From: Thermoanaerobaculia bacterium
GTDB taxonomy: Bacteria > Acidobacteriota > Thermoanaerobaculia > UBA5066
Direction: 5' to 3'
Length of the DNA stretch: 64,000 nucleotides
NCBI GenBank assembly: GCA_963719225.1
Contig: CAVRAY010000001.1
Location: 3,424,001 to 3,488,000 of the forward strand
The notes below the pieces were generated by a model. The model saw only the letters and a list, made by a program, of their open reading frames with translations. It ran no database searches and was not told where the DNA came from. Below are positions 24,937 to 37,167 of the stretch, in pieces (positions within the stretch are counted from its first letter, which is position 1; each line of letters begins with the position of its first letter). Both the position numbers and the translations under genes were made by a program.

Positions 24937-26856
24937 ATGAACACGCTCTGGATCGTCGTGATCGCGACGGTCGTCATCTACCTGGCCTACAACTTCTACG
25001 CGCGGAAGATTGACCGGGACATCATCAAATCCGACGCGCGGAAGGCGACGCCGGCCACGATGTACATGGATGGCGTGGACTTCATGCCCACGAGCAAGAA
25101 CGTCCTCTACGGCTACCACTTCAAGTCCATTGCCGCGGCGGGCCCGATCGTCGGCCCCATCACGGCGGCGAATCTGTGGGGGTGGTTCCCGTCCCTCCTG
25201 TGGCTCGTCATCGGGGTGAGCTTCATCGGATGGGTCAGCGACTACTCCGCGATCATGGTCTCGGTCCGGAACGACGGGAACAGCCTGAGCGCGATCTCGC
25301 ACAAGCTCATCGCCCCGCGCACGCGGACGATCCTCTTCATCTTCATCTTCTTCTACCTGATGCTCCTCGCCGGAGCGTTCGTCGGAATCCTCGCGGCGAT
25401 CCTCTCCGCCCGCCCGGACGTGCCCTTCGGAATCATCACCCTGGCTCTCATGGGGCTCCTCGCGGGCCAGATGATGTACCGCTGGAAGATGAACCTGATC
25501 CTCGTCACGGCGATCGTCGTGGCCGTGACCCTCGGCGCGATGGCGCTCGGGCCGTGGGGCCAGACGAAGAACGACAAGGGAGCTCTCGTGCAGGGACCGG
25601 TCGGCGCGGCGGTCGTCTCGCTGAACGCTTCCGTCGACAACCTGAACGCCAGGCAGCCGATCCTCTCCCTCGAGGATCCGACGAACGCGGACCCGCGCAT
25701 TCCGGCTCCCGGGCCGGACGGCAAGCGTCCGACCACGGCAGCCTACGACGCGGCCACGAGGCAGATCCGGACGCTTCCGAACTACCTCCTCTGGATGGTC
25801 TTCCTCTTCGCCTTCTCCTATTGCGGCGCGAACATGCCCATCTGGCGGTTCGCCCAGCCCGTCAACTACATCGGCTTCTGGGTCATGCTGATCACGATCG
25901 TCCTCTCGGCCATCGGCGCTGTCGTCGCCCCTCTGACGGGCGTCCTGGACGCGGGCGGGAAGGCGATCGGCGCCTTCGCCCTCACGGCCGTCAAGGACCT
26001 CGGCTTCACGGCTCCGGCCAAGCCGTTCACGGCGTGGCAGCCGCTCTGGCCGATGCTCTTCGTGACGATCGCCTGCGGCGCGATCTCCGGCTGGCACGCG
26101 CTCGTCGGCTCGGTCGGGACGGCACGGCAGCTCGAGTACGAGACCGACGGCCTCCCGGTCGGCGGCGGCTCGATGTTCGGCGAGTACACGCTCGCCCTCC
26201 TTTCGCTCGTGGCCGTCTCCATCGCGGGCGTCGGAGGCGGCGGCGGCAGGTTCGCCGCAGGCGTCGGGAAGCTGATCTACGCCGGCACCTTCAAGGCGAT
26301 TCCCGAGGTTTTCGGCACCGCGCTCGGGTTCGGCGCCTTCGTCGTCATCGTCCTGACGGTGACGCAGCTCGTCTTCCGCGTCATGCGCGTCACGCTCACC
26401 GAGTGGGCGGGCGAGGCGATTCCGCTCGTGCGCAACATGCACGTCTCGAGCATCATCTCGATGCTGCTGACGCTCGCCCTCGTCCTGACGGGCACCTGGG
26501 TCTACCTGTGGCAGATGTTCGGCGCGTCGAACCAGCTCATGGCGGCGCTGAGCCTCCTCGTCGTGACCGTCTGGCTCAAGTCGGAGAAGCGGAATCCGAG
26601 CTACGCGCTCTACCCGATGCTCTTCATGTACGTCACGACGCTCTTCGCCACGGCCGTCACGGCACGCAACCTCTACGTGACGATCGCGGCAAACCCGGCG
26701 ATGACCGGGCTCCCGGTCGCGGGCGCCTGGGCGATGATCGTCCTCGCGGGTCTTCTCATCGTCGCGGCGCTCTTCATCGGATGGGACGGCCTGAAGGCCT
26801 ACAGGAAGTACAGCGCGGCGCCGGTTCCGAAGCCAGTCGTCGCGGCGGCGGCCTAG
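24937..26856 (+). CDS. cstA: Carbon starvation CstA family transporter
   Basis: TPA.MYMDGVDFMPT, LYGYHFKSIAAAGPIVGP, PMLFVTIACGAISGWHAL, WQMFGASNQL; AGGAG RBS. Confidence 0.92.
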   Translation: MNTLWIVVIATVVIYLAYNFYARKIDRDIIKSDARKATPATMYMDGVDFMPTSKNVLYGYHFKSIAAAGPIVGPITAANLWGWFPSLLWLVIGVSFIGWVSDYSAIMVSVRNDGNSLSAISHKLIAPRTRTILFIFIFFYLMLLAGAFVGILAAILSARPDVPFGIITLALMGLLAGQMMYRWKMNLILVTAIVVAVTLGAMALGPWGQTKNDKGALVQGPVGAAVVSLNASVDNLNARQPILSLEDPTNADPRIPAPGPDGKRPTTAAYDAATRQIRTLPNYLLWMVFLFAFSYCGANMPIWRFAQPVNYIGFWVMLITIVLSAIGAVVAPLTGVLDAGGKAIGAFALTAVKDLGFTAPAKPFTAWQPLWPMLFVTIACGAISGWHALVGSVGTARQLEYETDGLPVGGGSMFGEYTLALLSLVAVSIAGVGGGGGRFAAGVGKLIYAGTFKAIPEVFGTALGFGAFVVIVLTVTQLVFRVMRVTLTEWAGEAIPLVRNMHVSSIISMLLTLALVLTGTWVYLWQMFGASNQLMAALSLLVVTVWLKSEKRNPSYALYPMLFMYVTTLFATAVTARNLYVTIAANPAMTGLPVAGAWAMIVLAGLLIVAALFIGWDGLKAYRKYSAAPVPKPVVAAAA

Positions 26857-27710
26857 GAGGGTCCGCGAGCCCGGAGCGCGAGAACGAGAACGACCTTCTT
26901 CGGGGCCGGCGCGAAGTCTTCCGGCCGCCTGGAGAAGCCGTCGAAGAACGCGAGGGACAGGCGGTCTTCCTCCCGCTTGAAGATCACCCATCCCCCGCGT
27001 TCCCGCGAGGGCGGCACCGCGGCGAGCAGAAAAGAGTCTGGCGCGGCCGGATCGACGGCGAGAGTAAAACTGGCCGTCTCTCCGATTCCGTTCGTCGCGA
27101 CGAGCTTTCCGTCATGGAACGTCCAGGTGCCGCTCGAGAACTTTCGATCGGGAATGGCCAGGCCGTTCACCGTGGCGCTGCGCAGATCCCAGGTCCCGTC
27201 GAGGAGACGAAGGACGACACGCGCGCCGCCTGCGTCCGGCGAAACCGCGGTCACGACGTTCGTCGGCGCCGACGGCGGTCCCAGAGTCCCCGCGAGGGAG
27301 TCCGCCTCGGCCGGCTGGAGACCGGCGATCACGAGGACTCCATTCGTGATCCCCGCGACGACGACGGGCGCGGCGCGAAGCCGGCCAGCCACCACGATGC
27401 CGAAACGCCGCCCCACGTTTCGCGACGTCGCCTCGGCGAGCTTGCGCGTGCCGTCCGGCGTCAATACGAGCCGGATCTCTCCGCCTCCCCCCGGACCGCG
27501 TACCGCGTCGGCATTCGCTACAGCCGTTTCATCCAGCAGGGCGGCGGAATCCAGGGCGATCTCCTCGGCGCCGCCTCCGGGCAGGGCGAGGCGCCATATC
27601 CTCGAGCCGGGAGCGCCGGCCGACGTGACGAGATGGACGCCGAAGGAGCCGCCCGCCGCGGCGGCAGCGGATGAAAACGAAAAAATCGCAGCGCAAAGGG
27701 CTCGTCTCAC
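26853..27710 (-). CDS. Secreted protein with SecD P1-head-like domain and TIGR03067-like domain
   Basis: Signal peptide; LTPDGTRKLAEATSRNVGRRFGIVV.G...APVV...I.G; then LDGTW...G.WTF.DGK. Confidence 0.6.
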   Translation of the reverse strand: MRRALCAAIFSFSSAAAAAGGSFGVHLVTSAGAPGSRIWRLALPGGGAEEIALDSAALLDETAVANADAVRGPGGGGEIRLVLTPDGTRKLAEATSRNVGRRFGIVVAGRLRAAPVVVAGITNGVLVIAGLQPAEADSLAGTLGPPSAPTNVVTAVSPDAGGARVVLRLLDGTWDLRSATVNGLAIPDRKFSSGTWTFHDGKLVATNGIGETASFTLAVDPAAPDSFLLAAVPPSRERGGWVIFKREEDRLSLAFFDGFSRRPEDFAPAPKKVVLVLALRARGPS

Positions 27711-27719
27711 GTCGGGTTC

Positions 27720-28358
27720 CTAGGTCCGAAGCGCGCGCTCGCCGATCGTTCGCACCGCCGCGAAGACTTCCTCCGCGGGAGCGGACGCGGCGGGCAGGTC
27801 GACGTGGAGCTGCAGGTGAGGCTCGGTCCGGCGCACCGACAGGCGCCGGACCGTGAGGCCTCCGCCGCGGGCGAGCTCCAGGAGATCGTCGGCGAGAGGC
27901 AGCGTGCCCTCGACCTTGTAATAGACCGGCCGCGCGCCGCTTGCCGGGGCCTCGCGCACGGACCAGCGCTCCGAGCCCATGCGGCGGAGTGCATCGCGTC
28001 CCGCGAAGCTCTTGCGGTCGAGCGCCTCGAGATCGCCGTGCGGCGCGCGTCGCAGGCGCGCGCGGAGAATGAGCGCGTCGCGCCGGCCGCGGCTCCTCGA
28101 AAAACCCCAGAGCCACGGGACGTCGCGCGGCTCGAGGAAGATCACGAGCGTCACTTCCTCGAACGGGGCCTTGGGCTTCACGAGGGAGAGCTCGACCGCC
28201 GTCGTCCCGAGCCAGCGGACCGTCGTCCTCTCGCAGAGGAGGTGAAGCCCTCCCTGCATCCAGCGGAGAGTGGCCTTTCCCTTCCGCACGTTCCAGATGC
28301 TCCCGGCCGCGAACCACACCATGACGAGCGCGACCAGGAGCATGAGCGGCGTGGACAG
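27720..28358 (-). CDS. Hypothetical membrane-anchored protein
   Basis: N-terminal TM helix; GGAGGT 5 nt before an in-frame CTG at 28358 (alternative ATG 28343). Confidence 0.7.
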   Translation of the reverse strand: MSTPLMLLVALVMVWFAAGSIWNVRKGKATLRWMQGGLHLLCERTTVRWLGTTAVELSLVKPKAPFEEVTLVIFLEPRDVPWLWGFSRSRGRRDALILRARLRRAPHGDLEALDRKSFAGRDALRRMGSERWSVREAPASGARPVYYKVEGTLPLADDLLELARGGGLTVRRLSVRRTEPHLQLHVDLPAASAPAEEVFAAVRTIGERALRT

Positions 28359-28433
28359 GTGGGACCTCCCGGCGATCTCTTCGCCGGCCGGAGACGATAG
28401 CAGAGCGTCCCAAACGTGCTAGGGTTCTCTCGA

Positions 28434-28712
28434 GTGGAAACGCGCGGCAGCCGGGGAAAAGCGATCCGGGAGTTCCTGTACGGGATGTTCGGCTACGAGC
28501 ACGCGCAGCAGGCGCTCGAGATCCGCGCCTCCATGGAGTCTCTCTTCATGGTCGTCACGTTCGGCGACATGCTCGGCGTTCCGGTGATGCCCCCGTATTA
28601 CAGCCTCCGACTCCTGCCGCACATCGTCGGCAGCCTCGAGACCTGGAAGCGGCGCACGCTTCGCGAGCGGCAGTTCGGCGACGGCCACGACCAGCATCTG
28701 CACGGGGTCTGA
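28434..28712 (+). CDS. Small CstA/ArsA-associated protein, paralogue 1 (cory-CC-star-like)
   Basis: RASMESLFMVVTFGDMLGVPVMPPYYSLRLLPH, close paralogue of the next ORF; TAGGGT 8 nt before GTG at 28434. Confidence 0.8.
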   Translation: METRGSRGKAIREFLYGMFGYEHAQQALEIRASMESLFMVVTFGDMLGVPVMPPYYSLRLLPHIVGSLETWKRRTLRERQFGDGHDQHLHGV

Positions 28713-28800
28713 GAGCGGCTTTTTTCCCCGTCAAGATCGAGGAAGCGCCGGCGAGTCTCGCGACATCGCCGGCGTTGCCGTCTCCGGGCCACATTTCATT

Positions 28801-28814
28801 AATGCATCTGCATC
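28801..28814. promoter_or_regulatory. Second copy of the ATGCA-N2-TGCAT operator-like site
   Basis: AATGCA-TC-TGCATC, about 23 nt before a TACCTT -10-like hexamer. Confidence 0.55.
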
Positions 28815-28884
28815 GCGCCCGGCGGCGCCGGTTGTCCTACCTTTTAGTGGGCCGGGTCGCGTCCGGCAGCGAGAGGAGAAGACG

Positions 28885-29172
28885 GTGTCCGACAAGAACA
28901 AAGTCGTCAGGCCGGGCGGCTTCAAGGGACTCTGGCACGGCTTCAAGGAAACCATCTACGGCATGTCCGCTCACGACATGAGCCGGGCGGCGCTCCGGAC
29001 GCGGGCCTCCATGGAGCACCTGTTCATCCTGATCACGATGGGAGACCTGCTCGGGATTCCCATTCTCCCGCCGTACTACAGCCTTCGGCTCCTTCCCCAC
29101 GTCGTTCCGCAGATCGCGACGTGGAAGCGCCGGATGCTCCGGGAGAAGGACGTCTCCGACGCGATGTTCTGA
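28885..29172 (+). CDS. Small CstA/ArsA-associated protein, paralogue 2 (cory-CC-star-like)
   Basis: RASMEHLFILITMGDLLGIPILPPYYSLRLLPH; AGGAG RBS. Confidence 0.85.
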   Translation: MSDKNKVVRPGGFKGLWHGFKETIYGMSAHDMSRAALRTRASMEHLFILITMGDLLGIPILPPYYSLRLLPHVVPQIATWKRRMLREKDVSDAMF

Positions 29173-29214
29173 GGTCTTCCCGGAAAAAAGAGCCGTCGAG
29201 AAGGAGAACGCATC

Positions 29215-30201
29215 ATGGGGATGAAAGAGGTCTTCGAGCAGAACCCCGGCCGCCGGTACATCATGTTCGGCGGCAAGGGCGGCCTGGGTAAAACGACGTT
29301 CTCGGCCGCGACGGCCTACTGGCTCGCGAAGCAGGGCAAGAAGGTCCTCGTCTTCTCCGTCGATCCCCAGGCCTCGCTCACCGACATCTTCCAGAAGGAC
29401 ATCTTCGGCAAGGGCCCGGTGAAGATCATGGAGAACCTGTGGGCGCAGGAGATCGACGCCGACAGCCACATCAAGGCCTACCAGGAGGAGATCCGCAAGA
29501 AGATCCGGGACATGTACGGTCTCGAGAAGGTGCCCGAGGAGATCGAGAGTTACATCCAGGCCGCCAGCGCCGAGCCGGCCATGGAGGAGAGCGCGATCTT
29601 CGACGCCGTGGTGGACGTCGTCGTCCAGGAGAACTACGACTACTACATCTACGACCTCGTCCCGCTCGGCCACGCGCTCTACTACCTCAGCATGGCGAAG
29701 GTCTACGACGAGTGGATCAACAAGGTGACGAAGCTGCGCGAGGACATGCGCGAGTACGAGGAGATGGTCAGCCGCCTCAAGCGCGAGAAGGAGACCGAGC
29801 AGGACGCGATCCTGAACGAGCTCGTCTACATCAAGGGACGGATCAACGCGTCTTCGAAAATCCTCACGGACAAGGACAAGACGGCGTTCTTCTTCGTCGT
29901 GACGCCCGAGGACATGATCATCGTCGACACGGAGAAGGCCGCGAAACTCTTCGCCCAGTTCGACGTCCCGATCGGCGGCTACGTCGTCAACCGCGTCATC
30001 CCTCACGAGCTGATCGACCAGAACATCCCCGACTACCTGCGCAACCGGATCCAGATGCAGGACAAGTACATCGGAAGCATCCGGACGACGTTCGGAAAGG
30101 ACGTCCTCGCCTACGTGCCGGAGCTCGAGCGCGACGTTACGGGTCTTCCGATGATCGAGAAGCTCGCCGGGATCATGTACGGCAACGGAAAGCTCGGCTG
30201 A
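29215..30201 (+). CDS. ArsA/Get3 (TRC40) family ATPase, subunit 1
   Basis: GGKGGLGKTT, SVDPQASL, EIDA, altered switch II DLVPLGH, VVTPE, VVNRV; no Cys. Confidence 0.92.
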   Translation: MGMKEVFEQNPGRRYIMFGGKGGLGKTTFSAATAYWLAKQGKKVLVFSVDPQASLTDIFQKDIFGKGPVKIMENLWAQEIDADSHIKAYQEEIRKKIRDMYGLEKVPEEIESYIQAASAEPAMEESAIFDAVVDVVVQENYDYYIYDLVPLGHALYYLSMAKVYDEWINKVTKLREDMREYEEMVSRLKREKETEQDAILNELVYIKGRINASSKILTDKDKTAFFFVVTPEDMIIVDTEKAAKLFAQFDVPIGGYVVNRVIPHELIDQNIPDYLRNRIQMQDKYIGSIRTTFGKDVLAYVPELERDVTGLPMIEKLAGIMYGNGKLG

Positions 30202-30229
30202 AGCCGGGGACGCGAGGAGAGAAACGGCC

Positions 30230-31243
30230 ATGCCTGAGATCCAGACTTCCATGAGCGACTACATCAAGGACCACGCCGGCCTGAAGTACATCTTCTTCGG
30301 CGGAAAGGGCGGCGTCGGAAAGACGGTCTTCGCGGCCGCGACCGCGCTCCACAACGCCCAGCTCGGGCGCCGCACGATGCTCGCCTCGACGAACCCCGTC
30401 CACAGCCTCTCGAGCCTCCTCGGCCAGAACGTGCTCGGCAAGCACACTCCGGTCGACGGCGCTCCGAACCTGTGGGCGTACGAGATCGAGACGAAGGAGA
30501 CGATCGAGCGGTCGAAGGTCGAGATCCGCGAGAAGATCAAGTGGTTCCTCAAGTTCGCCGACATCTCCACGAAGGCCGAGGATTTCGTGGAGTCGGCCAC
30601 CATGAACCCCGCCTTCGAGGAGTCGGCAATGTTCGAGAACATGATCGACCTCATGTTCAAGGACGAGTACGACGTCTACGTCTTCGACACGGCGCCCACC
30701 GCGAACGCACGGCGCCTGCTCGGCATGTCCAAGGTCTACTCCCTCTGGGTCAACAAGATGCTCAAGAGCCGCGAGGAGGCGAAGACCCTCCGCGAGCTGC
30801 TCTCCTTCACCAAGAAGAAGGAGGAGGACCCGCTCATGGCGTACCTCCTTTCCTTCCGCGACCGGATGGAGCACGGACGCGTGCTCCTCACCGACCCGGC
30901 CAAGACGTCGTTCTTCTTCGTGACGCTCCCCGAGGCGCTTCCGATCGCCGTCATCACGCGCTTCATCCAGTGGTTCCACGATTTCGGCATCCCCGTAGGG
31001 GGCGTCCTCGTCAACATGCTGATCGACAAGGCCTCCGTCGGCGCCGGGGCGGCCGACTTCGTGAAGAACCGCGTCGCGATGCAGGACGAGCACATGAAGA
31101 CCGTCTGGCAGAAGTTCGACGGCAGCGTCCGCGCCATCGTCCCGCTCTACGAGACGGAGATCCGCGGCGTCCCGATGCTCAAGCGGCTCGGCGACGCGAT
31201 GTTCGCGGAACCGGTGGAGGCCGTCCTTTCCGGCTCCCGCTAG
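30230..31243 (+). CDS. ArsA/Get3 (TRC40) family ATPase, subunit 2 (switch I Asp to Asn)
   Basis: GGKGGVGKT, STNPVHSL, FDTAPTANA, VTLPE, LVNML; no Cys. Confidence 0.92.
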   Translation: MPEIQTSMSDYIKDHAGLKYIFFGGKGGVGKTVFAAATALHNAQLGRRTMLASTNPVHSLSSLLGQNVLGKHTPVDGAPNLWAYEIETKETIERSKVEIREKIKWFLKFADISTKAEDFVESATMNPAFEESAMFENMIDLMFKDEYDVYVFDTAPTANARRLLGMSKVYSLWVNKMLKSREEAKTLRELLSFTKKKEEDPLMAYLLSFRDRMEHGRVLLTDPAKTSFFFVTLPEALPIAVITRFIQWFHDFGIPVGGVLVNMLIDKASVGAGAADFVKNRVAMQDEHMKTVWQKFDGSVRAIVPLYETEIRGVPMLKRLGDAMFAEPVEAVLSGSR

Positions 31244-31455: not shown

Positions 31456-32715
31456 CCGGCGGGAGCTCCCTTCAACGCCGAGGTCCACCAGTGGACCTAC
31501 GACGCCATCGGGAATAGGCTGACGAGCCAGGTGAACGCCGCGATCAAGACCTACACGTACGAGAAGATCGGCGCGAACCCGAAGAACGCGCAGAAGCTGA
31601 TGAACGATGGGACGAACGCTTACGCCTACGACTTCAACGGAAGTCAGACGTCACGGACGGGCTTCGGCTTCGTGAACGACCCCGACAACCGCCTGAGCTC
31701 CATCACCGGCGGAACCGCCGCGAGCTACACGTACGACTACCAGGGGCGGAGGACCTCGAAGACGGTCGCAGGCGTGACGACGAAGTACCTGTACGACGGC
31801 CTGAATCTGATCAGAGAAGCCAAAGCAGGCGTGAACACCGACTACGCCTTCGGCCCCTCAATCGATGAACCACTGGCCCTCTATGCCTCGGGCGCCGTCA
31901 GTTACTTGAACGCGGACGGGCTTGGCAGCATCGTGGCGACGAACTCGACTGCAGGAACGGTCACGCACAGCTCGATCTTTGACGCGTGGGGCGCGGTGAA
32001 GGGCGAGACGGGCACACGGATTCATTCCTTCACCTATACGGGGAGGGAGACGGGAGAGGCCGGGCTACATTTCTATAGGGCACGGGTGATGCAGCCGGGC
32101 GTCGGACGCCTGACTCAAGAGGATCCGTTGGGTTTGGGCCCGAGCGTTTATGCGTATGCCTTCAACGACCCTGCTCGCCTTCTCGACCCGCTGGGCGCGG
32201 CGGGCGAGGCGCTCGACTTCTCGCCAGACAAAGGCCACCACTTCTTCCCCCGAGCTGAGTGGGGGAAAGTGCCCGGCCTTTCACAAGAGGCAAAAGACAT
32301 CTTCGACCATACCAAAACAGGCGGCAAGCTTCCCACTGATATTCACTACTGGAACGGCCCGAACGGTGTGCATGGTCAATACAGCACTGCGACCCGCGAG
32401 CTCTTCGACGAGTTCGTTAAGTCGCGCGGAATCGACCCTACGAAGATGACCCGCGCGGAAGCCGAGGAGTTTATTCGGACGATAATCAACTCTCGGCGCG
32501 GCCCGATTAGGAGGCTGCTCGACCCAATTCGGCGCTGGATGCGGGCGAATCGGCTACGCGGGAAGACCTTCTGCTTCGGCCCGGTCGATTTCGGCCTCGC
32601 GATCGCCGAGATGCTCTTGGAGGACCAGGAAGAGAGTCAACTCGACTCTGATTACATTCGCTGGAAGTACTTCCACGGGCCAATGCCGGGCGGCGCAGCT
32701 GGAGCGATTTACTGA
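31456..32715 (+). CDS. Orphan (5'-truncated) Rhs core with C-terminal putative nuclease toxin
   Basis: YD repeats start abruptly (WTYDAIGNRL, YTYDYQGRR); core end YTGRE..GLHFYRAR...EDPLG...YAYAFNDP..LDPLG; C-terminus with GHHFFP...H...H; first in-frame start GTG 31531 lies mid-repeat. Confidence 0.85.
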   Translation, partial: PAGAPFNAEVHQWTYDAIGNRLTSQVNAAIKTYTYEKIGANPKNAQKLMNDGTNAYAYDFNGSQTSRTGFGFVNDPDNRLSSITGGTAASYTYDYQGRRTSKTVAGVTTKYLYDGLNLIREAKAGVNTDYAFGPSIDEPLALYASGAVSYLNADGLGSIVATNSTAGTVTHSSIFDAWGAVKGETGTRIHSFTYTGRETGEAGLHFYRARVMQPGVGRLTQEDPLGLGPSVYAYAFNDPARLLDPLGAAGEALDFSPDKGHHFFPRAEWGKVPGLSQEAKDIFDHTKTGGKLPTDIHYWNGPNGVHGQYSTATRELFDEFVKSRGIDPTKMTRAEAEEFIRTIINSRRGPIRRLLDPIRRWMRANRLRGKTFCFGPVDFGLAIAEMLLEDQEESQLDSDYIRWKYFHGPMPGGAAGAIY

Positions 32716-33377
32716 TGCTGGACAACGGGTTCGTACTCACCTACGGGCCGGGTTTGCGTGGGCCTCATCGATTTTGTGGCGTTAACGAGACCGCCGATGC
32801 CCAGTGTCCGAACTGTAAGAGGCCGCTTCTGCAGCTCTTCGTATTCGACATGAACGACCGACCGTTGGAGTCGCTGGGGCACGCGCTCTCGGCTGACCGG
32901 CTCCCACTTCATTGGTGCTGGACGTGCGACATTCTCAGGGGGCCGCTAACCTACGAGTTGCTGGACCGGGGTCGACGCATCAGGCTATTGACCTACAACC
33001 ACGGGCGCTTCCAACCGGATACTCCGTACCCGGACTATCCGATCTACTTCCCAGGCACCGATTCGGGACTCGAGGAGATTCCAGCCGTCGTGAGCGGGCA
33101 GGTTAGGAACCTCAATCGACGGGAAATCCGGCTCAGTACTGTTGATGGCGAAGCGTGGGCTAGACCTAGGCATCAGCTCGGGGGGGAGCCGTTCTTTTCA
33201 GGTGGCCTACCCGGCCGGCGCGTTTGTCAGCAGTGCGGAGCCGAGATGGAGTTGCTCGGGGCCGTTGCAGACAAATGCACGGACGCCCGCGGCTTCGCCT
33301 CGAATGAGTTCGTCCAGTTGCTCTTCTGGGTCTGCCCGCCTTGCCGGATCCTGCGTGGGGAACAGGATCTAGAGTAG
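32715..33377 (+). CDS. Putative immunity protein (YwqG/DUF1963-like, CxxC pairs)
   Basis: Coupled by TGATG to the toxin; CPNC..PL.QLF, HQLGGEP, CQQCG.EM.LL, FWVCPPC; lower GC. Confidence 0.7.
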   Translation: MLDNGFVLTYGPGLRGPHRFCGVNETADAQCPNCKRPLLQLFVFDMNDRPLESLGHALSADRLPLHWCWTCDILRGPLTYELLDRGRRIRLLTYNHGRFQPDTPYPDYPIYFPGTDSGLEEIPAVVSGQVRNLNRREIRLSTVDGEAWARPRHQLGGEPFFSGGLPGRRVCQQCGAEMELLGAVADKCTDARGFASNEFVQLLFWVCPPCRILRGEQDLE

Positions 33378-34067
33378 CGGCCCGCTGGGCACGTCGCGTG
33401 CGGAAGCAAGCGTGCGGTGAGCGCACCCTGGCGCACGCGCCGCGCCCGCTACCGACTCGCACGATCGTGAGCTGATCGCGACGGCCGCGCTTCGAAGAGC
33501 ACGACCGGAGAGAGCGCCCGCCCGCGGCTCCGGCGAGAGGGCAGGAGGTGCCGGGCGCGGGGCAGCGCGCGTGCCCGTAGCCTCTTCCCCGGCCCTTCTC
33601 CCGGCACGCGCGCTGCGAAGCCCGCTGGCCGATATTTCGCGCAAATATCGTCCCCGGCGCTTGCGCTTTTTTCCGCGTCGCTCACGCGCCGCGTGGCAGC
33701 CCTCTCGCCTCCGGGCTCGCGGTAGCTCGCCTTCAACGTAACGTCGAACGCTACGTTAAACCGCGGCGGGCGTAGCGAGCGCGCGACGAAGATCGCGCGA
33801 GTTCTCGGAAGTGAAGGCCTGGCACGCCGCGTGCTGGTTTTCCGCCTCGCGCCAGGCGGGGACACGCGCTGGCATCGACGGACGGTCAGTCGGGACCACG
33901 GGGATTCTCTACGGTGGCCCTCGAAGGGACGACCCTTCGCCGGCGGACAGTTCCGGGCGAAGACACGGTCAGGATCGTCCCGGAGTGATCCGCGGCATCC
34001 TGAGGCTCATCGCGTAGGATGCGGAGCGTCCATGCCGCCCGGAGCCTTTCTCAGCGAAGGAGTCGCC

Positions 34068-34487
34068 ATGAAGAAACTGCTAGCTCTTATCGCCGCGACC
34101 TTCATTCTCGTCGGCTTCTCGGCCTCGGCGGACGACAGCGATGCCGTCGCTCAAGCCCAGATTGCCGCAAAGAGCTGGCTGGCGCTCACGGATGGCGCCA
34201 AGTACGGTAAGAGCTGGGACGACGCGGCGTCCGTCTTCAAGGCCGCCGTCACGAAGGCAGACTGGGAGAAAGCCATCAAGGGCGTCCGCGCGCCGCTCGG
34301 CGCGATGAAGGCGCGAAAGGTCAAGTCGGCCACCTTCACGCGCACTCTTCCTGGCGCCCCGGATGGGGAGTACGTCGTCATTCAATTCGACTCGCAGTTC
34401 GAGAACAAGGCCGCCGCGATCGAGACGATCACGCCCATGCGCGACAAGGACGGCGCCTGGAGGGTTTCCGGCTACTACATCAAGTAG
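34068..34487 (+). CDS. Secreted DUF4019-type protein
   Basis: Signal peptide; AKSWLAL.D...Y.KSW, LPGAPDGEYVVIQF, DGAWRVSGY; AAGGAG RBS. Confidence 0.85.
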   Translation: MKKLLALIAATFILVGFSASADDSDAVAQAQIAAKSWLALTDGAKYGKSWDDAASVFKAAVTKADWEKAIKGVRAPLGAMKARKVKSATFTRTLPGAPDGEYVVIQFDSQFENKAAAIETITPMRDKDGAWRVSGYYIK

Positions 34488-34490
34488 GCG

Positions 34491-34585
34491 GAGCTAGTCG
34501 ACCTCCCGTGGGGAATGCGGGAGTTCGGCGTCCGCGCGCCGGACGGACATGGATCATGTTCGGTCAGGAGTTAAGGAGAGGTTGA
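34491..34585 (+). pseudogene. C-terminal relic of a VOC/glyoxalase gene
   Basis: ELVDLPWGMREFGVRAPDGH, then a 1-nt shift to IMFGQEL; no 5' part. Confidence 0.6.
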
Positions 34586-34614
34586 TATCGTCGGACGGCC
34601 GGCAGGAGGACAGG

Positions 34615-34863
34615 ATGGCGCGGATCGCGTTTCGCTACTGTGCCTATTGAGTTTCGGGTTTGCATGCCGTCCGTGTGGCGGCACGGATTCGAAAAGAGCT
34701 GAAGACCGAGGTCGAGATGGTTCACGGCCGCTACGGTGAATTCAAGGTTCTCGTGGATGGAGATAGCGTGATCGATGGCGGCGCGCTCGCCGTGTTGGGC
34801 GTTCTGCCATCTGGCCGGAAGATCGTCGATGCTGTCCGGGCGCGCCTGGGAGATCGCTTGTGA
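34615..34863 (+). CDS. Rdx (SelW/SelT/SelH) family selenoprotein; TGA at 34648-34650 read as Sec
   Basis: AGGAGG RBS; MARIAFRYCAY(U)VSGLHAVRVAARI...G.YGEFKVLVDG...LP; CxxU after the first beta strand; hairpin 34665-34683. Confidence 0.8.
34665..34683 (+). promoter_or_regulatory. Bacterial SECIS-like hairpin
   Basis: TGCCGTC-CGTGT-GGCGGCA; loop begins 21 nt after the UGA, with G at loop position 2. Confidence 0.55.
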
Positions 34864-35141
34864 GCGCAAAATTTCTCATCGAAGTTCCGCACGAAGGAAA
34901 CATGGTGGTCTGCGCTCGGGCCGTCGAAGTCTTCCTCACGAGCGGCTCCCATTTCCTCAGCCATGCAGACTGGGGATGCAAGGACGGGGTGCACAAGGCG
35001 TGGATCGTGGTGGAGGTCGACAGCAAGGACGAGGCCCGGGGCATCGTCCCACCGGCGTTCCGCGCCGAGGCGAACATCGTCCAGCTCAACGCGTTCACGT
35101 TGAAGGAAATCGACGAAATCCTTCAGCATCACCAGGCCTAA
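34860..35141 (+). CDS. Hypothetical small protein
   Basis: GTGA overlap with the Rdx gene; FLIEVPH, HADWGCKDGVHKAWIVVE. Confidence 0.75.
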   Translation: MSAKFLIEVPHEGNMVVCARAVEVFLTSGSHFLSHADWGCKDGVHKAWIVVEVDSKDEARGIVPPAFRAEANIVQLNAFTLKEIDEILQHHQA

Positions 35142-35176
35142 CCATCCGGGCCCTCCGAAGCCGGGCAGGTGATTCC

Positions 35177-35569
35177 ATGCCAGCCAGCCGCAAGCCGCCG
35201 AAAGACATCGACGAATACATCGCGGCCTCCTCTCCCGAGGTAAGGGCGATTCTCACGCGAATATGGTCGACGATCCGCAAGGCGGCACCGGGCGCCCAGG
35301 AGATGATCAGCTATCGGATGCCGGCGTTCACGCAGAAGGGCGTCCTGGTGTACTTCGCCGCCTTCAAGAACCACATCGGCTTCTATCCCCCGGTGAGGGG
35401 CGATGCGAGACTGAAAAAAGCTGTTTCGCGCTATGCGGGAGAAAAAGGCAATCTGCGATTTCCGCTCGACCAACCGATGCCCTATGGCCTGATCCAGAGG
35501 ATCGTGAAGCTTCGCGTGAAGCAGAACCTCGCGAGGGCGGCTTCCAGGGGAAAGGAGGCTAAGGGCTAG
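35177..35569 (+). CDS. DUF1801/YdhG-like protein
   Basis: IDEYI, AAPGAQEMISYRMPAF, YFAAFKNHIGFYP, KGNLRFPLDQPMP. Confidence 0.9.
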   Translation: MPASRKPPKDIDEYIAASSPEVRAILTRIWSTIRKAAPGAQEMISYRMPAFTQKGVLVYFAAFKNHIGFYPPVRGDARLKKAVSRYAGEKGNLRFPLDQPMPYGLIQRIVKLRVKQNLARAASRGKEAKG

Positions 35570-37167
35570 CTCCAGTCCCGCCGTCTCTCCCAGATCCCGT
35601 CCGCCGCGCGGAGCGCCAGGGCGCCGATCGTGTTCGTGGGATTGACGGCGGCGCTCGTGACGAAGGAGCTGCCGTCGACGACGTAGAGATTCGGCACGTC
35701 GTGCGCGCGGTTCCATGCGTTCACGACGCTGTGCCGCGGGTCGTTTCCCATCCGGGCCGTGCCCATGAGATGCGCGAAGACGTTCGGGCCGGGCACCTGC
35801 AGAGTTTCCACGGCGCCCGCCGCCTCCAGCACCTGCCGCGCGCGCGCGACCCCGTGGTCGAGCATGCGGAGCGTGTTCTGTGAATAGCGGTACGTGACCT
35901 TCGCCGCCGGCATGCCGTGGAGGTCGTGCTCTTTCGAATCGAGCGTGACGCGATTCGCCTCCTCCGGCAGGTCCTCGCTCATGATCGCGATGCCGATCGT
36001 GTGCGCGAAGCGGCGCCGCATCTCGCGGTGATGCGCCGCGCCCCAGGGGACCGGCTTCGCGTCGCCCCACGCCTGGCTCAAGGGACCATACGGCCCATAC
36101 ACGACCAGCGAGTAGCCGCGCGTGAAGCCGCGGCGCGTGTCGGTTTCGTAGAACTCCTGGCTGAAGCACGGATTCGAGGCGATGCCCACGTGGCCGTCGA
36201 GGCGCTCCGGGAAGATCCCCTCGACGTAATGGCTCGGATGGACCATGTAGCGGCGGCCGAGGAGGCCGCTGGAGTTCGCGAGACCCTGCGGAAAGAGCTT
36301 CGAGCGGGAGTTCAGGAGCAGACGCGGCGTGCCGATGCCGTTGCAGCAGACGACGACGACGCGCCCCCGCTGCTCGTGGAGGGCGCCCGAGCGGTCGTGG
36401 TAGAGGACGCCGCGCGCGCGGCCGGCGGCGTCGGTCGTAACCTCGCGGACGCGCGCCCACGTCGTGATCCTCGCCCCCTCGGCCAGCGCTTTCGGCCAGT
36501 ACGTGAGATCCACCGAAGCCTTCGCCCTCCGGGGACAGCCGAAGTTGCAGCGGCCCCGGCCGTCGCAGCCGAGCCGGCCGTCGGCATCGCGCGAGAGGAT
36601 CGCGTTGTCGGAAGGCCACCAGTGCCAGCCGAGCTTCTCGAAACCGCGCACCACGACTTCTCCGCGTTTTCCGAGGCCGAGCGGAGGATGCGGGCGAGGC
36701 GCGCGCGGAGGGTTCGCGGGATCGCCCGCGAGACCCGACACGCCCATCATGCGGTCGTTGAGGTCGTAGTAGCGCTCGAGGTCCGCGTAGCCCAGCGGCC
36801 AGTCGTCCCCGACGCCGTCGAGAGACCGCACGCGGAAATCCGCGGGGTGCAAGCGCGGAAAATGACCTTCCCAGTGGATCGTGCTCCCCCCGACGCCGTT
36901 GAACATCACGATCTGCGAGGGGGTGAGGCCTTCCGTCGTCACCGGGTAGTCCTCCGCGAGGCGGCGGACGTTCGGGCTGAACGTGGAGCGTCCCCGCCGG
37001 AGGAATACCTCGACGTCGCGCTGCGACGAGGGGAGCGCGTCGCGCGCGATCCAGTCGCCCTGCTCGAGACAGACGACGCGAGCGCCGCTCGCGGCGAGAC
37101 GCCAGGAGAGCGCCGCGCCGGCGGCACCCGACCCGACGACGACGACGTCCGCGATCTCGCCCGCCAT
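35566..37167 (-). CDS. GMC family flavoprotein oxidoreductase
   Basis: DVVVVGSGAAG, VGGSTIHW, CxxxGxCxxGC, HLMGTARMG, NLYVVDGS, NPTNTI.ALA. Confidence 0.93.
   Translation of the reverse strand: MAGEIADVVVVGSGAAGAALSWRLAASGARVVCLEQGDWIARDALPSSQRDVEVFLRRGRSTFSPNVRRLAEDYPVTTEGLTPSQIVMFNGVGGSTIHWEGHFPRLHPADFRVRSLDGVGDDWPLGYADLERYYDLNDRMMGVSGLAGDPANPPRAPRPHPPLGLGKRGEVVVRGFEKLGWHWWPSDNAILSRDADGRLGCDGRGRCNFGCPRRAKASVDLTYWPKALAEGARITTWARVREVTTDAAGRARGVLYHDRSGALHEQRGRVVVVCCNGIGTPRLLLNSRSKLFPQGLANSSGLLGRRYMVHPSHYVEGIFPERLDGHVGIASNPCFSQEFYETDTRRGFTRGYSLVVYGPYGPLSQAWGDAKPVPWGAAHHREMRRRFAHTIGIAIMSEDLPEEANRVTLDSKEHDLHGMPAAKVTYRYSQNTLRMLDHGVARARQVLEAAGAVETLQVPGPNVFAHLMGTARMGNDPRHSVVNAWNRAHDVPNLYVVDGSSFVTSAAVNPTNTIGALALRAADGIWERRRDWS

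What the first reader, a model, noticed from the sequence alone, without database searches (positions are those of the whole stretch)
34615..34863. Hidden selenoprotein: Rdx family CxxU with SECIS-like hairpin, missed by the ORF track
Seen: AGGAGG, ATG at 34615, then RYCAY-TGA in frame with the 67-aa ORF at 34660 (GEFKVLVDG...LP), and hairpin TGCCGTC-CGTGT-GGCGGCA just downstream. Known: SelW/SelT/SelH proteins have YCxx(C/U) after beta1 and G.FEV.V.G later; bacterial SECIS elements lie just 3' of the UGA. Inference: a Sec-containing redox protein in an accessory island, translationally coupled to an uncharacterised His/Cys-containing 93-aa protein.
Basis: partly seen in the sequence, partly recalled or inferred. 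Interest (0 to 1): 0.7.

Follow-up and report, generated by a model that had tools for sequence, protein, structure and literature searches.

The report
SelW-like selenoprotein gene, usually mis-called short
This is a real 82-codon gene for a small SelW/Rdx-type protein whose internal UGA is very likely read as selenocysteine with the help of a strongly conserved RNA hairpin; gene callers cut it short, but the family is well known in bacteria, so the finding is correct and ordinary.

Summary
AGGAGG (34604-09), ATG 34615, Cys-Ala-Tyr-TGA (codon 12) and the hairpin at 34665-83 are all there. The genome has selA, selB, selC and selD. All 90 other homologous DNA loci examined have TGA at this codon. 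The hairpin is frozen at synonymous sites, keeps its inner 6 pairs in 84 of 84 distinct sequences and fits the bacterial SECIS model. Only the read-through protein passes Pfam Rdx, and its predicted fold matches bacterial SelW-like structures. It is therefore very likely a CxxU selenoprotein of the long-known SelW-like family; redox activity is inferred and the substrate is unknown. It belongs to a divergent group that falls below the NCBIfam cut-offs, has a hydrophobic loop where canonical members have a charged one, and is mostly annotated as a truncated hypothetical protein. The gene sits in a variable slot of the chromosome. A conserved link to the 93-aa neighbour is not supported: the two were adjacent in no other locus examined, and the neighbour has its own ribosome-binding site. 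The scan's notes already hold 187 findings with the same key words (unchecked). Ordinary; interest low.

The parts
34604..34609 (+). Shine-Dalgarno AGGAGG, 5 nt before the ATG
   Evidence: an SD-like word (loose pattern) precedes the start in 76 of 82 distinct loci with enough upstream DNA, this one included
34615..34863 (+). CDS of an 82-aa Rdx/SelW-like selenoprotein (TGA at codon 12 read as Sec; true stop 34861-63)
   Evidence: Pfam Rdx 23.4 bits against a cut-off of 22.6, only with read-through; AF2 model matches SelW-like structures; start at this codon in 81 of 84 distinct loci
34639..34650 (+). CxxU motif: Cys9 (TGT) to Sec12 (TGA 34648-34650), between beta1 and helix 1
   Evidence: Cys9 and TGA12 in 84 of 84 distinct sequences; model secondary structure
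34665..34683 (+). Bacterial SECIS hairpin: 7-bp stem, 5-nt loop C-G-(G/U)-G-U at 34672-34676, 21 nt after the UGA
   Evidence: RNAalifold consensus; 98.8% of cells paired, 18 cells with changes on both sides; synonymous sites frozen; fits the model in PMC13188914
34735..34749 (+). G-E-F-K-V, this group's version of the Rdx tGxFEI(V) motif (Lys in place of Glu)
   Evidence: alignment A1; motif as given in PMC10650576
34777..34809 (+). Residues 55-65: uncharged hydrophobic loop with a short predicted helix, distinctive of this group
   Evidence: mean Kyte-Doolittle +1.52 over 82 members against -1.85 for the 8-residue counterpart in 14 canonical Rdx selenoproteins; helix 56-60 in the model
34848..34856 (+). 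Own Shine-Dalgarno region of the downstream 93-aa gene, lying in the last codons of the Rdx gene
   Evidence: GGAGAT stands upstream of the start in 11 of 19 other loci of the 93-aa gene, none of which has Rdx
34860..35141 (+). 93-aa hypothetical protein; a neighbour, not a conserved partner
   Evidence: no Pfam hit over cut-off; found in 28 of 100 relatives against 6 of 100 for the Rdx gene; weak atlas lead to DUF3303, score 0.88, 13% of members

Best explanation
The gene has an in-frame UGA at codon 12 followed by a conserved hairpin in a genome carrying selA, selB, selC and selD, and it very likely makes an 82-residue SelW/Rdx-fold selenoprotein whose Cys-x-x-Sec pair is predicted to act as a thiol/selenol redox switch. 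Shown here: the gene anatomy, the conservation of UGA and hairpin, the machinery and the family match. Inferred from established bacterial Sec biology: SelB-GTP carrying Sec-tRNA(Sec) binds the apical loop 21 nt downstream and delivers Sec at the UGA; without selenium the ribosome stops after 11 residues, so the amount of protein would follow selenium supply. Inferred from the fold and motif: Sec12 attacks a disulfide, sulfenic acid or peroxide on a client, Cys9 resolves the intermediate to a selenenylsulfide, and a cellular thiol system re-reduces it. No signal peptide is apparent by eye, so it is probably cytoplasmic. The client is unknown; the hydrophobic loop at residues 55-65 is the likeliest specificity surface (membrane or partner binding, untested). 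The gene behaves as a stand-alone cassette that here landed in a variable slot upstream of an unrelated 93-aa gene.
For: Machinery: selA E 1.4e-108; tRNA-Sec with UCA anticodon, 59.9 bits; selB over cut-off; selD over cut-off and itself with one in-frame TGA. Six further candidate selenoprotein genes with hairpins. TGA at codon 12 in 90 of 90 other loci, although the search patterns carried Cys there. Codons under the hairpin are frozen: Ala18 GCC 82 of 84, Val19 GTC 76 of 76, Val21 GTG 83 of 83, Ala22 GCG 83 of 84, and Arg20 only CGT (54) or CGG (30), never CGC, which is 47% of Arg codons in this genome. That matches the 'G followed by G or U' loop rule. One fully compensatory synonymous swap (L098) and 17 C-G to U-A swaps at the base pair; 0 of 500 shuffles reach the score. 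Canonical Rdx selenoproteins of the same bacterial family mostly place a similar 7-bp stem at the same 21-nt spacing. True Cys versions exist (P0004, P0005, P0123, P0272); in P0004 and P0272 the otherwise invariant loop Arg is His, as expected once the SECIS is released (one cluster only). Pfam Rdx in 82 of 82 members at E<=0.1. Foldseek top hit 2fa8, E 3.4e-5, TM 0.77; VIA-align Z 11.4, rmsd 2.5, 79 aligned. 9 of 10 other carrier genomes have selA, and the tenth has selB and tRNA-Sec.
Against: No expression, proteomic or 75Se evidence. The hairpin is unremarkable on its own, and a shifted register competes in this copy. In the covariation control a -3 slide still pairs 90.5% of cells, and 3 of 7 pairs never vary. 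Among database proteins that cover the motif, Trp (2 of the top 120) and Arg (4), Gly (1) and Glu (1) (among the 150 listed) also occur at this position; their DNA could not be seen. Sec machinery is nearly universal among the relatives (selB in 92 of 101), so co-occurrence does not discriminate there. Codon usage after the UGA is atypical for the genome (score about 0.0). The protein misses the NCBIfam cut-offs. No redox activity or substrate has been shown here.
Confidence: 0.93

Rival explanations
1. The TGA is a real stop. The true gene is the 67-68-aa ORF that gene callers report, or the gene is a pseudogene, and the upstream SD, ATG and Cys are incidental.
For: 116 of the top 120 database homologues begin after the motif. 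Codons 13 and 16 can be GTG/TTG/ATG starts. TGA is the commonest stop in this genome, 898 of 1305 long ORFs.
Against: The 11 upstream codons, their start and their SD are conserved. The short form lacks beta1 and both redox residues and has no Pfam match. A nonsense mutation would not be kept as TGA, never TAA or TAG, in 90 of 90 loci with a frozen hairpin, while the true stops vary (TGA 51, TAG 17, TAA 12). The short database entries are the expected caller artefact.
Confidence: 0.02
2. UGA is read through as Cys or Trp (leaky read-through, a tRNA-Sec pathway loading Cys, or an altered genetic code) rather than as Sec.
For: Two Trp and several Cys variants occur in protein databases.
Against: TGA closes most genes in this genome, so it is not globally reassigned. 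The only UCA-anticodon tRNA found is tRNA-Sec. selA and selD are present. The hairpin has SelB-type features. The two Trp entries are single-member clusters, and TGG is one base from TGA (inference: mutation, read error or code mis-call).
Confidence: 0.03
3. The selenoprotein and the 93-aa His/Cys protein form a two-gene module in which Sec read-through controls translation of the second gene, making it selenium-responsive. This rival concerns the partnership only.
For: 4-nt GTGA stop/start overlap. The 93-aa protein has Cys and His residues that recur in its relatives.
Against: The 93-aa gene was found in 0 of 88 other Rdx loci (71 of the 89 loci had 300 nt or more downstream), and Rdx in 0 of 19 other loci of the 93-aa gene. 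The two genomes with both genes carry them on different contigs. Three same-genus genomes hold the 93-aa gene in this slot behind other genes. It has its own SD. Soil contigs cover either gene and run on unlike at the junction.
Confidence: 0.1

Closest known systems
Bacterial SelW-like (SELENOW-like) selenoproteins, Pfam Rdx PF10262 (formerly PF05169), CxxU
   Same: Size near 80 aa, CxxU after beta1, GxF motif before beta3, in-ORF SECIS, Sec form outnumbering Cys form. Listed as a high-confidence predicted family in PMC13188914; 48 genes in Sargasso Sea data (PMC1088965) and 427 in GOS (PMC2398784).
   Different: Only just over the Pfam cut-off (23.4 against 22.6 bits). Lys replaces Glu in GxFE. 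An 11-residue hydrophobic loop replaces the 8-residue charged one. The C-terminal third is not matched by the Pfam profile (residues 3-52 only). It forms its own clade in a rough tree (98/95 support).
NCBIfam TIGR02174 (CXXU_selWTH) and NF041051 (SelTWH_Campy)
   Same: The only NCBIfam hits for this protein; NF041051 matches 82 of 82 members and TIGR02174 39 of 82 at E<=0.1.
   Different: Far below both cut-offs (13.6 against 34.2; 32.2 against 88 bits); TIGR02174 misses the gene in a genome search.
Solved Cys-type bacterial SelW-related proteins (PDB 2fa8, 2ojl, 3dex, 2p0g, 2oka, 2obk), mouse SelW (2npb), human MIEN1 (2ljk)
   Same: Same predicted minimal thioredoxin-like fold; TM 0.65-0.80. 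The first three are also the sequence hits of the profile.
   Different: 18-27% identity. 2fa8 and 2ojl carry CxxC. The model has an extra short helix at residues 56-60.
Bacterial SECIS consensus model (as summarised in PMC13188914)
   Same: Loop 5 nt (3-9 allowed), stem 7 bp (4-16), G at loop position 2 followed by G or U, spacing 21 nt (16-37), energy below -7.5 kcal/mol.
   Different: The first and last loop bases (C, U) do not form the standard pair that most loops of the model have; no lower stem is conserved across the group.

Membership tests
Rdx / SelW-like (PF10262) | Score over the Pfam gathering cut-off | tested here: met
   23.4 against 22.6 bits, E 6.9e-5, with read-through; no hit for the 67-aa form
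Rdx / SelW-like (PF10262) | CxxC or CxxU after the first strand | tested here: met
   Cys9 and TGA12 in 84 of 84; strand 4-8, helix 13-29 in the model
Rdx / SelW-like (PF10262) | tGxFEI(V) motif (PMC10650576) | tested here: inconclusive
   G-E-F-K-V at 41-45: G-x-F and V are kept, Lys stands for Glu in 75 of 84
Rdx / SelW-like (PF10262) | Thioredoxin-like SelW fold | tested here: met
   Predicted model only (pLDDT 82.8); top Foldseek and VIA-align hits are SelW-related
Rdx / SelW-like (PF10262) | Thiol/selenol oxidoreductase activity | not testable with these tools
   inferred from motif and fold
TIGR02174 CXXU_selWTH | Score over 34.2 bits | tested here: not met
   13.6 bits
NF041051 SelTWH_Campy | Score over 88 bits | tested here: not met
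   32.2 bits
Bacterial selenoprotein gene | selA, selB, selC, selD in the genome | tested here: met
Bacterial selenoprotein gene | UGA conserved and aligned to Cys in homologues | tested here: met
   TGA in 90 of 90 other loci; Cys in P0004, P0005, P0123, P0272
Bacterial selenoprotein gene | bSECIS geometry: loop 3-9 nt, stem 4-16 bp, G in first two loop positions, spacing 16-37 nt, MFE <= -7.5 | tested here: met
   checked by hand and script; bSECISearch itself was not available
Bacterial selenoprotein gene | Selenium in the protein product | not testable with these tools
   needs 75Se or MS
Conserved two-gene operon with the 93-aa protein | Adjacent in other genomes | tested here: not met
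   0 of 88 and 0 of 19 loci
Mobile genomic island | Region absent or replaced in close relatives | tested here: met
   flanks about 30 nt apart in G012 and about 0.8 kb apart in G017; other cargo in G006, G013, G020, G022
Mobile genomic island | Integrase, tRNA target or attachment repeats | not tested
   only tRNA in the window is at 19.5 kb; no repeat search was run, and only the main ORFs of the slot were scanned

The most novel reading that the evidence does not exclude
This is a distinct, widespread and almost always Sec-encoding Rdx subfamily (named hosts: Acidobacteriota, including Vicinamibacterales and Blastocatellia, and Gemmatimonadaceae), hidden in databases as 60-68-aa hypothetical proteins. 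Its hydrophobic loop and basic surface (pI near 9.6) would tether it to the membrane or to one specific partner, giving a peripheral-membrane selenol redox catalyst unlike the soluble SelW-like proteins. Its SECIS would also dictate part of the helix-1 sequence.
Probability: 0.25. Interest if true: 0.45.

Novelty: new member of a known kind. Interest (0 to 1): 0.24.

Why it matters
Mostly annotation. The search returned 725 homologues, and 116 of the 120 listed are N-terminally truncated entries, nearly all unnamed or called hypothetical. A new profile would fix them and enlarge the known selenoproteome of Acidobacteriota and similar bacteria. The alignment is a clean example of a SECIS imprinting itself on codon choice, useful for training SECIS models for GC-rich bacteria. 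The function of bacterial SelW-like proteins is still open, and the natural Sec and Cys versions of this group would be convenient to compare, but this locus gives no new clue to the substrate.

Tried and rejected
Conserved neighbourhood: all-against-all comparison of ORFs around 89 loci gave no cluster larger than 5 loci, so there is no guilt-by-association clue. Homodimer prediction with a Cys homologue (P0005, alignment A3): no verdict, not used. Sequencing runs: no RNA holder listed, shares 0.05-0.08; the contigs laid are relatives, so they say nothing about expression. Promoter scan 33800-35700: 0 sigma-70-like sites and 2 terminator-like sites on the minus strand, at chance level. TIGR02174 and PF10262 genome searches missed the gene in its own genome. 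My codon-score scan for selenoproteins also missed it because of its atypical codon usage. GC content as island evidence was rejected as unspecific: the 60-64% dip also covers the conserved arsA-like pair. Global UGA reassignment was rejected. The query ran 13 residues past the true stop, which wasted one search pattern; hits covered residues 1-78 only. BSepDB paper text had no hit for SelW, Rdx, SELENOW or Acidobacteri. Look-ups in earlier notes by place and by sequence gave nothing relevant. The DNA behind the Trp and Arg database variants could not be examined.

Full report
Observation. The hairpin lies at 34665-34683, with a 7-bp stem and a 5-nt loop starting 21 nt after the UGA. On its own the hairpin is weak evidence. 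Its folding z-score is -1.2 to -2.4 for three short fragments, 320 of 3000 random TGAs in the genome pass a simple SECIS filter, and in this copy a shifted register is the best short hairpin.

Machinery. The genome (97% complete, 2 contigs) has selA, tRNA-Sec with a UCA anticodon, selB and selD, which itself has one in-frame TGA. TGA is otherwise an ordinary stop: 898 of 1305 long coding-like ORFs end in it. A rough scan gave 32 read-through candidates, many of them plain gene junctions. I followed up six: four match AhpC-TSA, thioredoxin-like, OsmC and molybdopterin-oxidoreductase profiles over cut-off, one matches thioredoxin weakly and one matches nothing. So the organism very likely uses Sec widely.

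Homologous DNA. A script scored 89: 88 had TGA at codon 12 and one (L017) was misregistered by an alignment gap. L017 and L018 show Cys-x-x-TGA on inspection and L081 shows TGA with its Cys codon off the contig. So 90 of 90 loci other than this one have TGA; none has Cys, Trp or Arg, although the search patterns carried Cys. True stops of the same genes vary (TGA 51, TAG 17, TAA 12). Of 84 distinct sequences, 81 have a start codon at codon 1, and 76 of 82 with enough upstream DNA have an SD-like word by a loose pattern. Of 10 other carrier genomes, 9 have selA; the tenth, in 480 contigs, has selB and tRNA-Sec. This co-occurrence carries little weight, since selB is in 92 of 101 relatives (G061, flagged unpublished, is counted in the 101-genome tallies).

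SECIS. Across 84 distinct sequences (of 88; this one included) the codons under the hairpin are frozen: Ala18 GCC 82 of 84, Val19 GTC 76 of 76, Val21 GTG 83 of 83, Ala22 GCG 83 of 84, entropy 0-0.19 bits against 1.0-1.9 at other Ala and Val positions. Arg20 is CGT (54) or CGG (30) and never CGC, which makes up 47% of Arg codons in the genome. This is the 'G followed by G or U' rule of the bacterial SECIS model (PMC13188914, passages read). The inner six pairs hold in 84 of 84. RNAalifold finds the same single helix. 98.8% of cells pair, 18 cells show changes on both sides, including a C-G to G-C swap at two synonymous sites in L098, and 0 of 500 shuffles reach the covariation score; but three pairs never vary and the -3 slide control still pairs 90.5%. 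Loop size, stem length, spacing and energy fit the model; the first and last loop bases do not pair. Canonical Rdx selenoproteins from other genera of the same family mostly put a similar stem at the same spacing.

Protein. With read-through the protein scores 23.4 bits on Pfam Rdx (cut-off 22.6); the 67-aa form has no match. All 82 aligned members match Rdx at E<=0.1. It is well below the TIGR02174 and NF041051 cut-offs. AlphaFold2 gives pLDDT 82.8, with CxxU between strand 4-8 and helix 13-29. Foldseek ranks bacterial SelW-related structures first (2fa8, E 3.4e-5, TM 0.77), and the wide search gives 2fa8 Z 11.4 (rmsd 2.5, 79 aligned), MIEN1 8.6 and mouse SelW 8.3. The atlas returns Rdx clusters at 0.90 for a Cys homologue. 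The protein search found 725 homologues; of the 120 listed, 116 start after the motif, 2 have Cys and 2 have Trp. Among the 150 listed of 212 cluster representatives, 135 do not cover the motif, 10 have Cys, 4 Arg, 1 Gly and 1 Glu. The Trp and Arg forms count against my reading. The three checked are single-member clusters, and TGG and CGA are one base from TGA; full-length entries are also enriched for non-TGA variants because TGA forms get truncated (inference). In one Cys cluster (P0004, P0272) the loop Arg has become His, which suggests the RNA rather than the protein holds that residue; this rests on one cluster.

What is distinctive. After strand 4 the group has an 11-residue uncharged loop (mean hydropathy +1.52, 0.05 charged residues, n=82), where 14 canonical Rdx selenoproteins parsed from 15 loci have an 8-residue charged one (-1.85). 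The model puts a short helix there. Lys replaces Glu in the tGxFEI(V) motif (motif from PMC10650576, passage read). In a rough 43-row, 82-column tree using 14 of the 82 members, the group forms a clade with 98/95 support that also takes in one long-branch row.

Neighbourhood. The stretch from about 31.2 to 37.7 kb is a variable slot. Its flanks lie about 30 nt apart in G012 and about 0.8 kb apart in G017, and other same-genus genomes carry different cargo. No mobility genes were shown. The 93-aa gene is in 28 of 100 relatives and the Rdx gene in 6 of 100; the two genomes with both have them on different contigs. The 93-aa, DUF4019 and DUF1801 genes were found in none of 88 other Rdx loci (71 of 89 loci had at least 300 nt downstream), and Rdx in none of 19 other loci of the 93-aa gene. 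The purine-rich stretch at 34848-56 recurs upstream of the 93-aa gene in 11 of those 19 loci, so it is that gene's own SD. The GTGA overlap is real and local coupling is possible, but it is not conserved.

Mechanism. Shown: gene anatomy, conservation, machinery, family match. Inferred from established bacterial Sec biology: SelB binds the loop and delivers Sec-tRNA at the UGA, and failure ends translation after 11 residues. Inferred from fold and motif: selenolate attack by Sec12, resolution by Cys9, re-reduction by a thiol system. The client and the role of the hydrophobic loop are open.

Literature. SelW-like CxxU proteins were the most abundant family in Sargasso Sea data (48 genes; PMC1088965, passages) and in GOS (427; PMC2398784, passages). 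They appear among 25 bacterial families, with few Cys homologues in Sec-using organisms (PMC1794560, passages), and in a 2026 review as predicted with high confidence and without a worked-out function (PMC13188914, passages). PMC12013277 and PMC3316567 (passages) added nothing specific; PMC13326102 had no hit for my terms. Five searches showed no description of this hydrophobic-loop group, but they were aimed at the family, and I opened no supplements or the BSepDB database, where members may be listed. The scan's own notes hold 187 findings with the same key words in at least 186 genomes (unchecked AI notes, not evidence).

Verdict. A real, well-supported but ordinary selenoprotein gene: a new member of a known kind, from a divergent and under-annotated group. 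The partnership with the 93-aa protein is not supported. Interest 0.24.

Noticed in passing
G000:C1:116472 (+), 251373 (+), 2228558 (+), 736134 (-), 208487 (-); C2:437698 (-); loci L145-L150: Six more candidate selenoprotein genes with in-frame TGA and downstream hairpins: AhpC-TSA peroxiredoxin-like (TxxU), thioredoxin-like (UxxC), OsmC-like, molybdopterin oxidoreductase (probably formate dehydrogenase alpha), a thioredoxin-like UxxC protein with an apparent signal peptide, and a UxxC protein with no Pfam match (PrdB-like by recall only).
   Followed up: partly
G000:C1:3641398-3642363 (-), L006: selD itself has an in-frame TGA (G-U-A-C); its hairpin has the same 5-nt loop as that of the formate-dehydrogenase-like gene, different from the Rdx loop.
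   Followed up: partly
window 24937-31243: CstA-like transporter, two cory-CC-star-like small proteins (below cut-off) and two tandem ArsA/Get3-type ATPases. The arsA-like pair is 88-94% identical in DNA in many same-genus genomes, more than the other flank.
   Followed up: partly
window 31531-33377: An orphan Rhs-core ORF (394 aa, TIGR03696 over cut-off) with an uncharacterised C-terminal domain, followed by a 220-aa Cys-rich ORF; looks like a polymorphic toxin tip with a likely immunity gene.
   Followed up: no
window about 33378-33845: A non-coding stretch of about 450 nt that recurs twice more in this genome (C1:3645366 and C1:3663423, 76% identical) and in many same-genus genomes, in some near Rhs-like sequence. 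A possible repeat element or structured RNA.
   Followed up: no
window 34860-35141: The 93-aa protein belongs to a conserved unnamed family (64-78% identity in 28 relatives) with a recurring H-A-D-W-G-C motif; weak atlas lead to DUF3303.
   Followed up: partly
L017/L136 (G075) and L018/L137 (G068): A second divergent Rdx selenoprotein group with four extra residues after Sec and an even longer loop before the last helix.
   Followed up: partly
L120-L134: Canonical Rdx genes with in-frame TGA in 14 genomes of other genera of the same family; the canonical form was not found in the 28 genomes of this genus, and no genome in the sample had both it and the group described here.
   Followed up: partly
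P0068: A database entry in which the truncated Rdx runs into a PF04237 domain (132 aa, single contig); a fusion or a frameshift artefact.
   Followed up: no
G000:C2:222382-222743 and 609793-610153: Two tmRNA genes with nearly identical tags in one assembly; may reflect the 6% contamination estimate.
   Followed up: no
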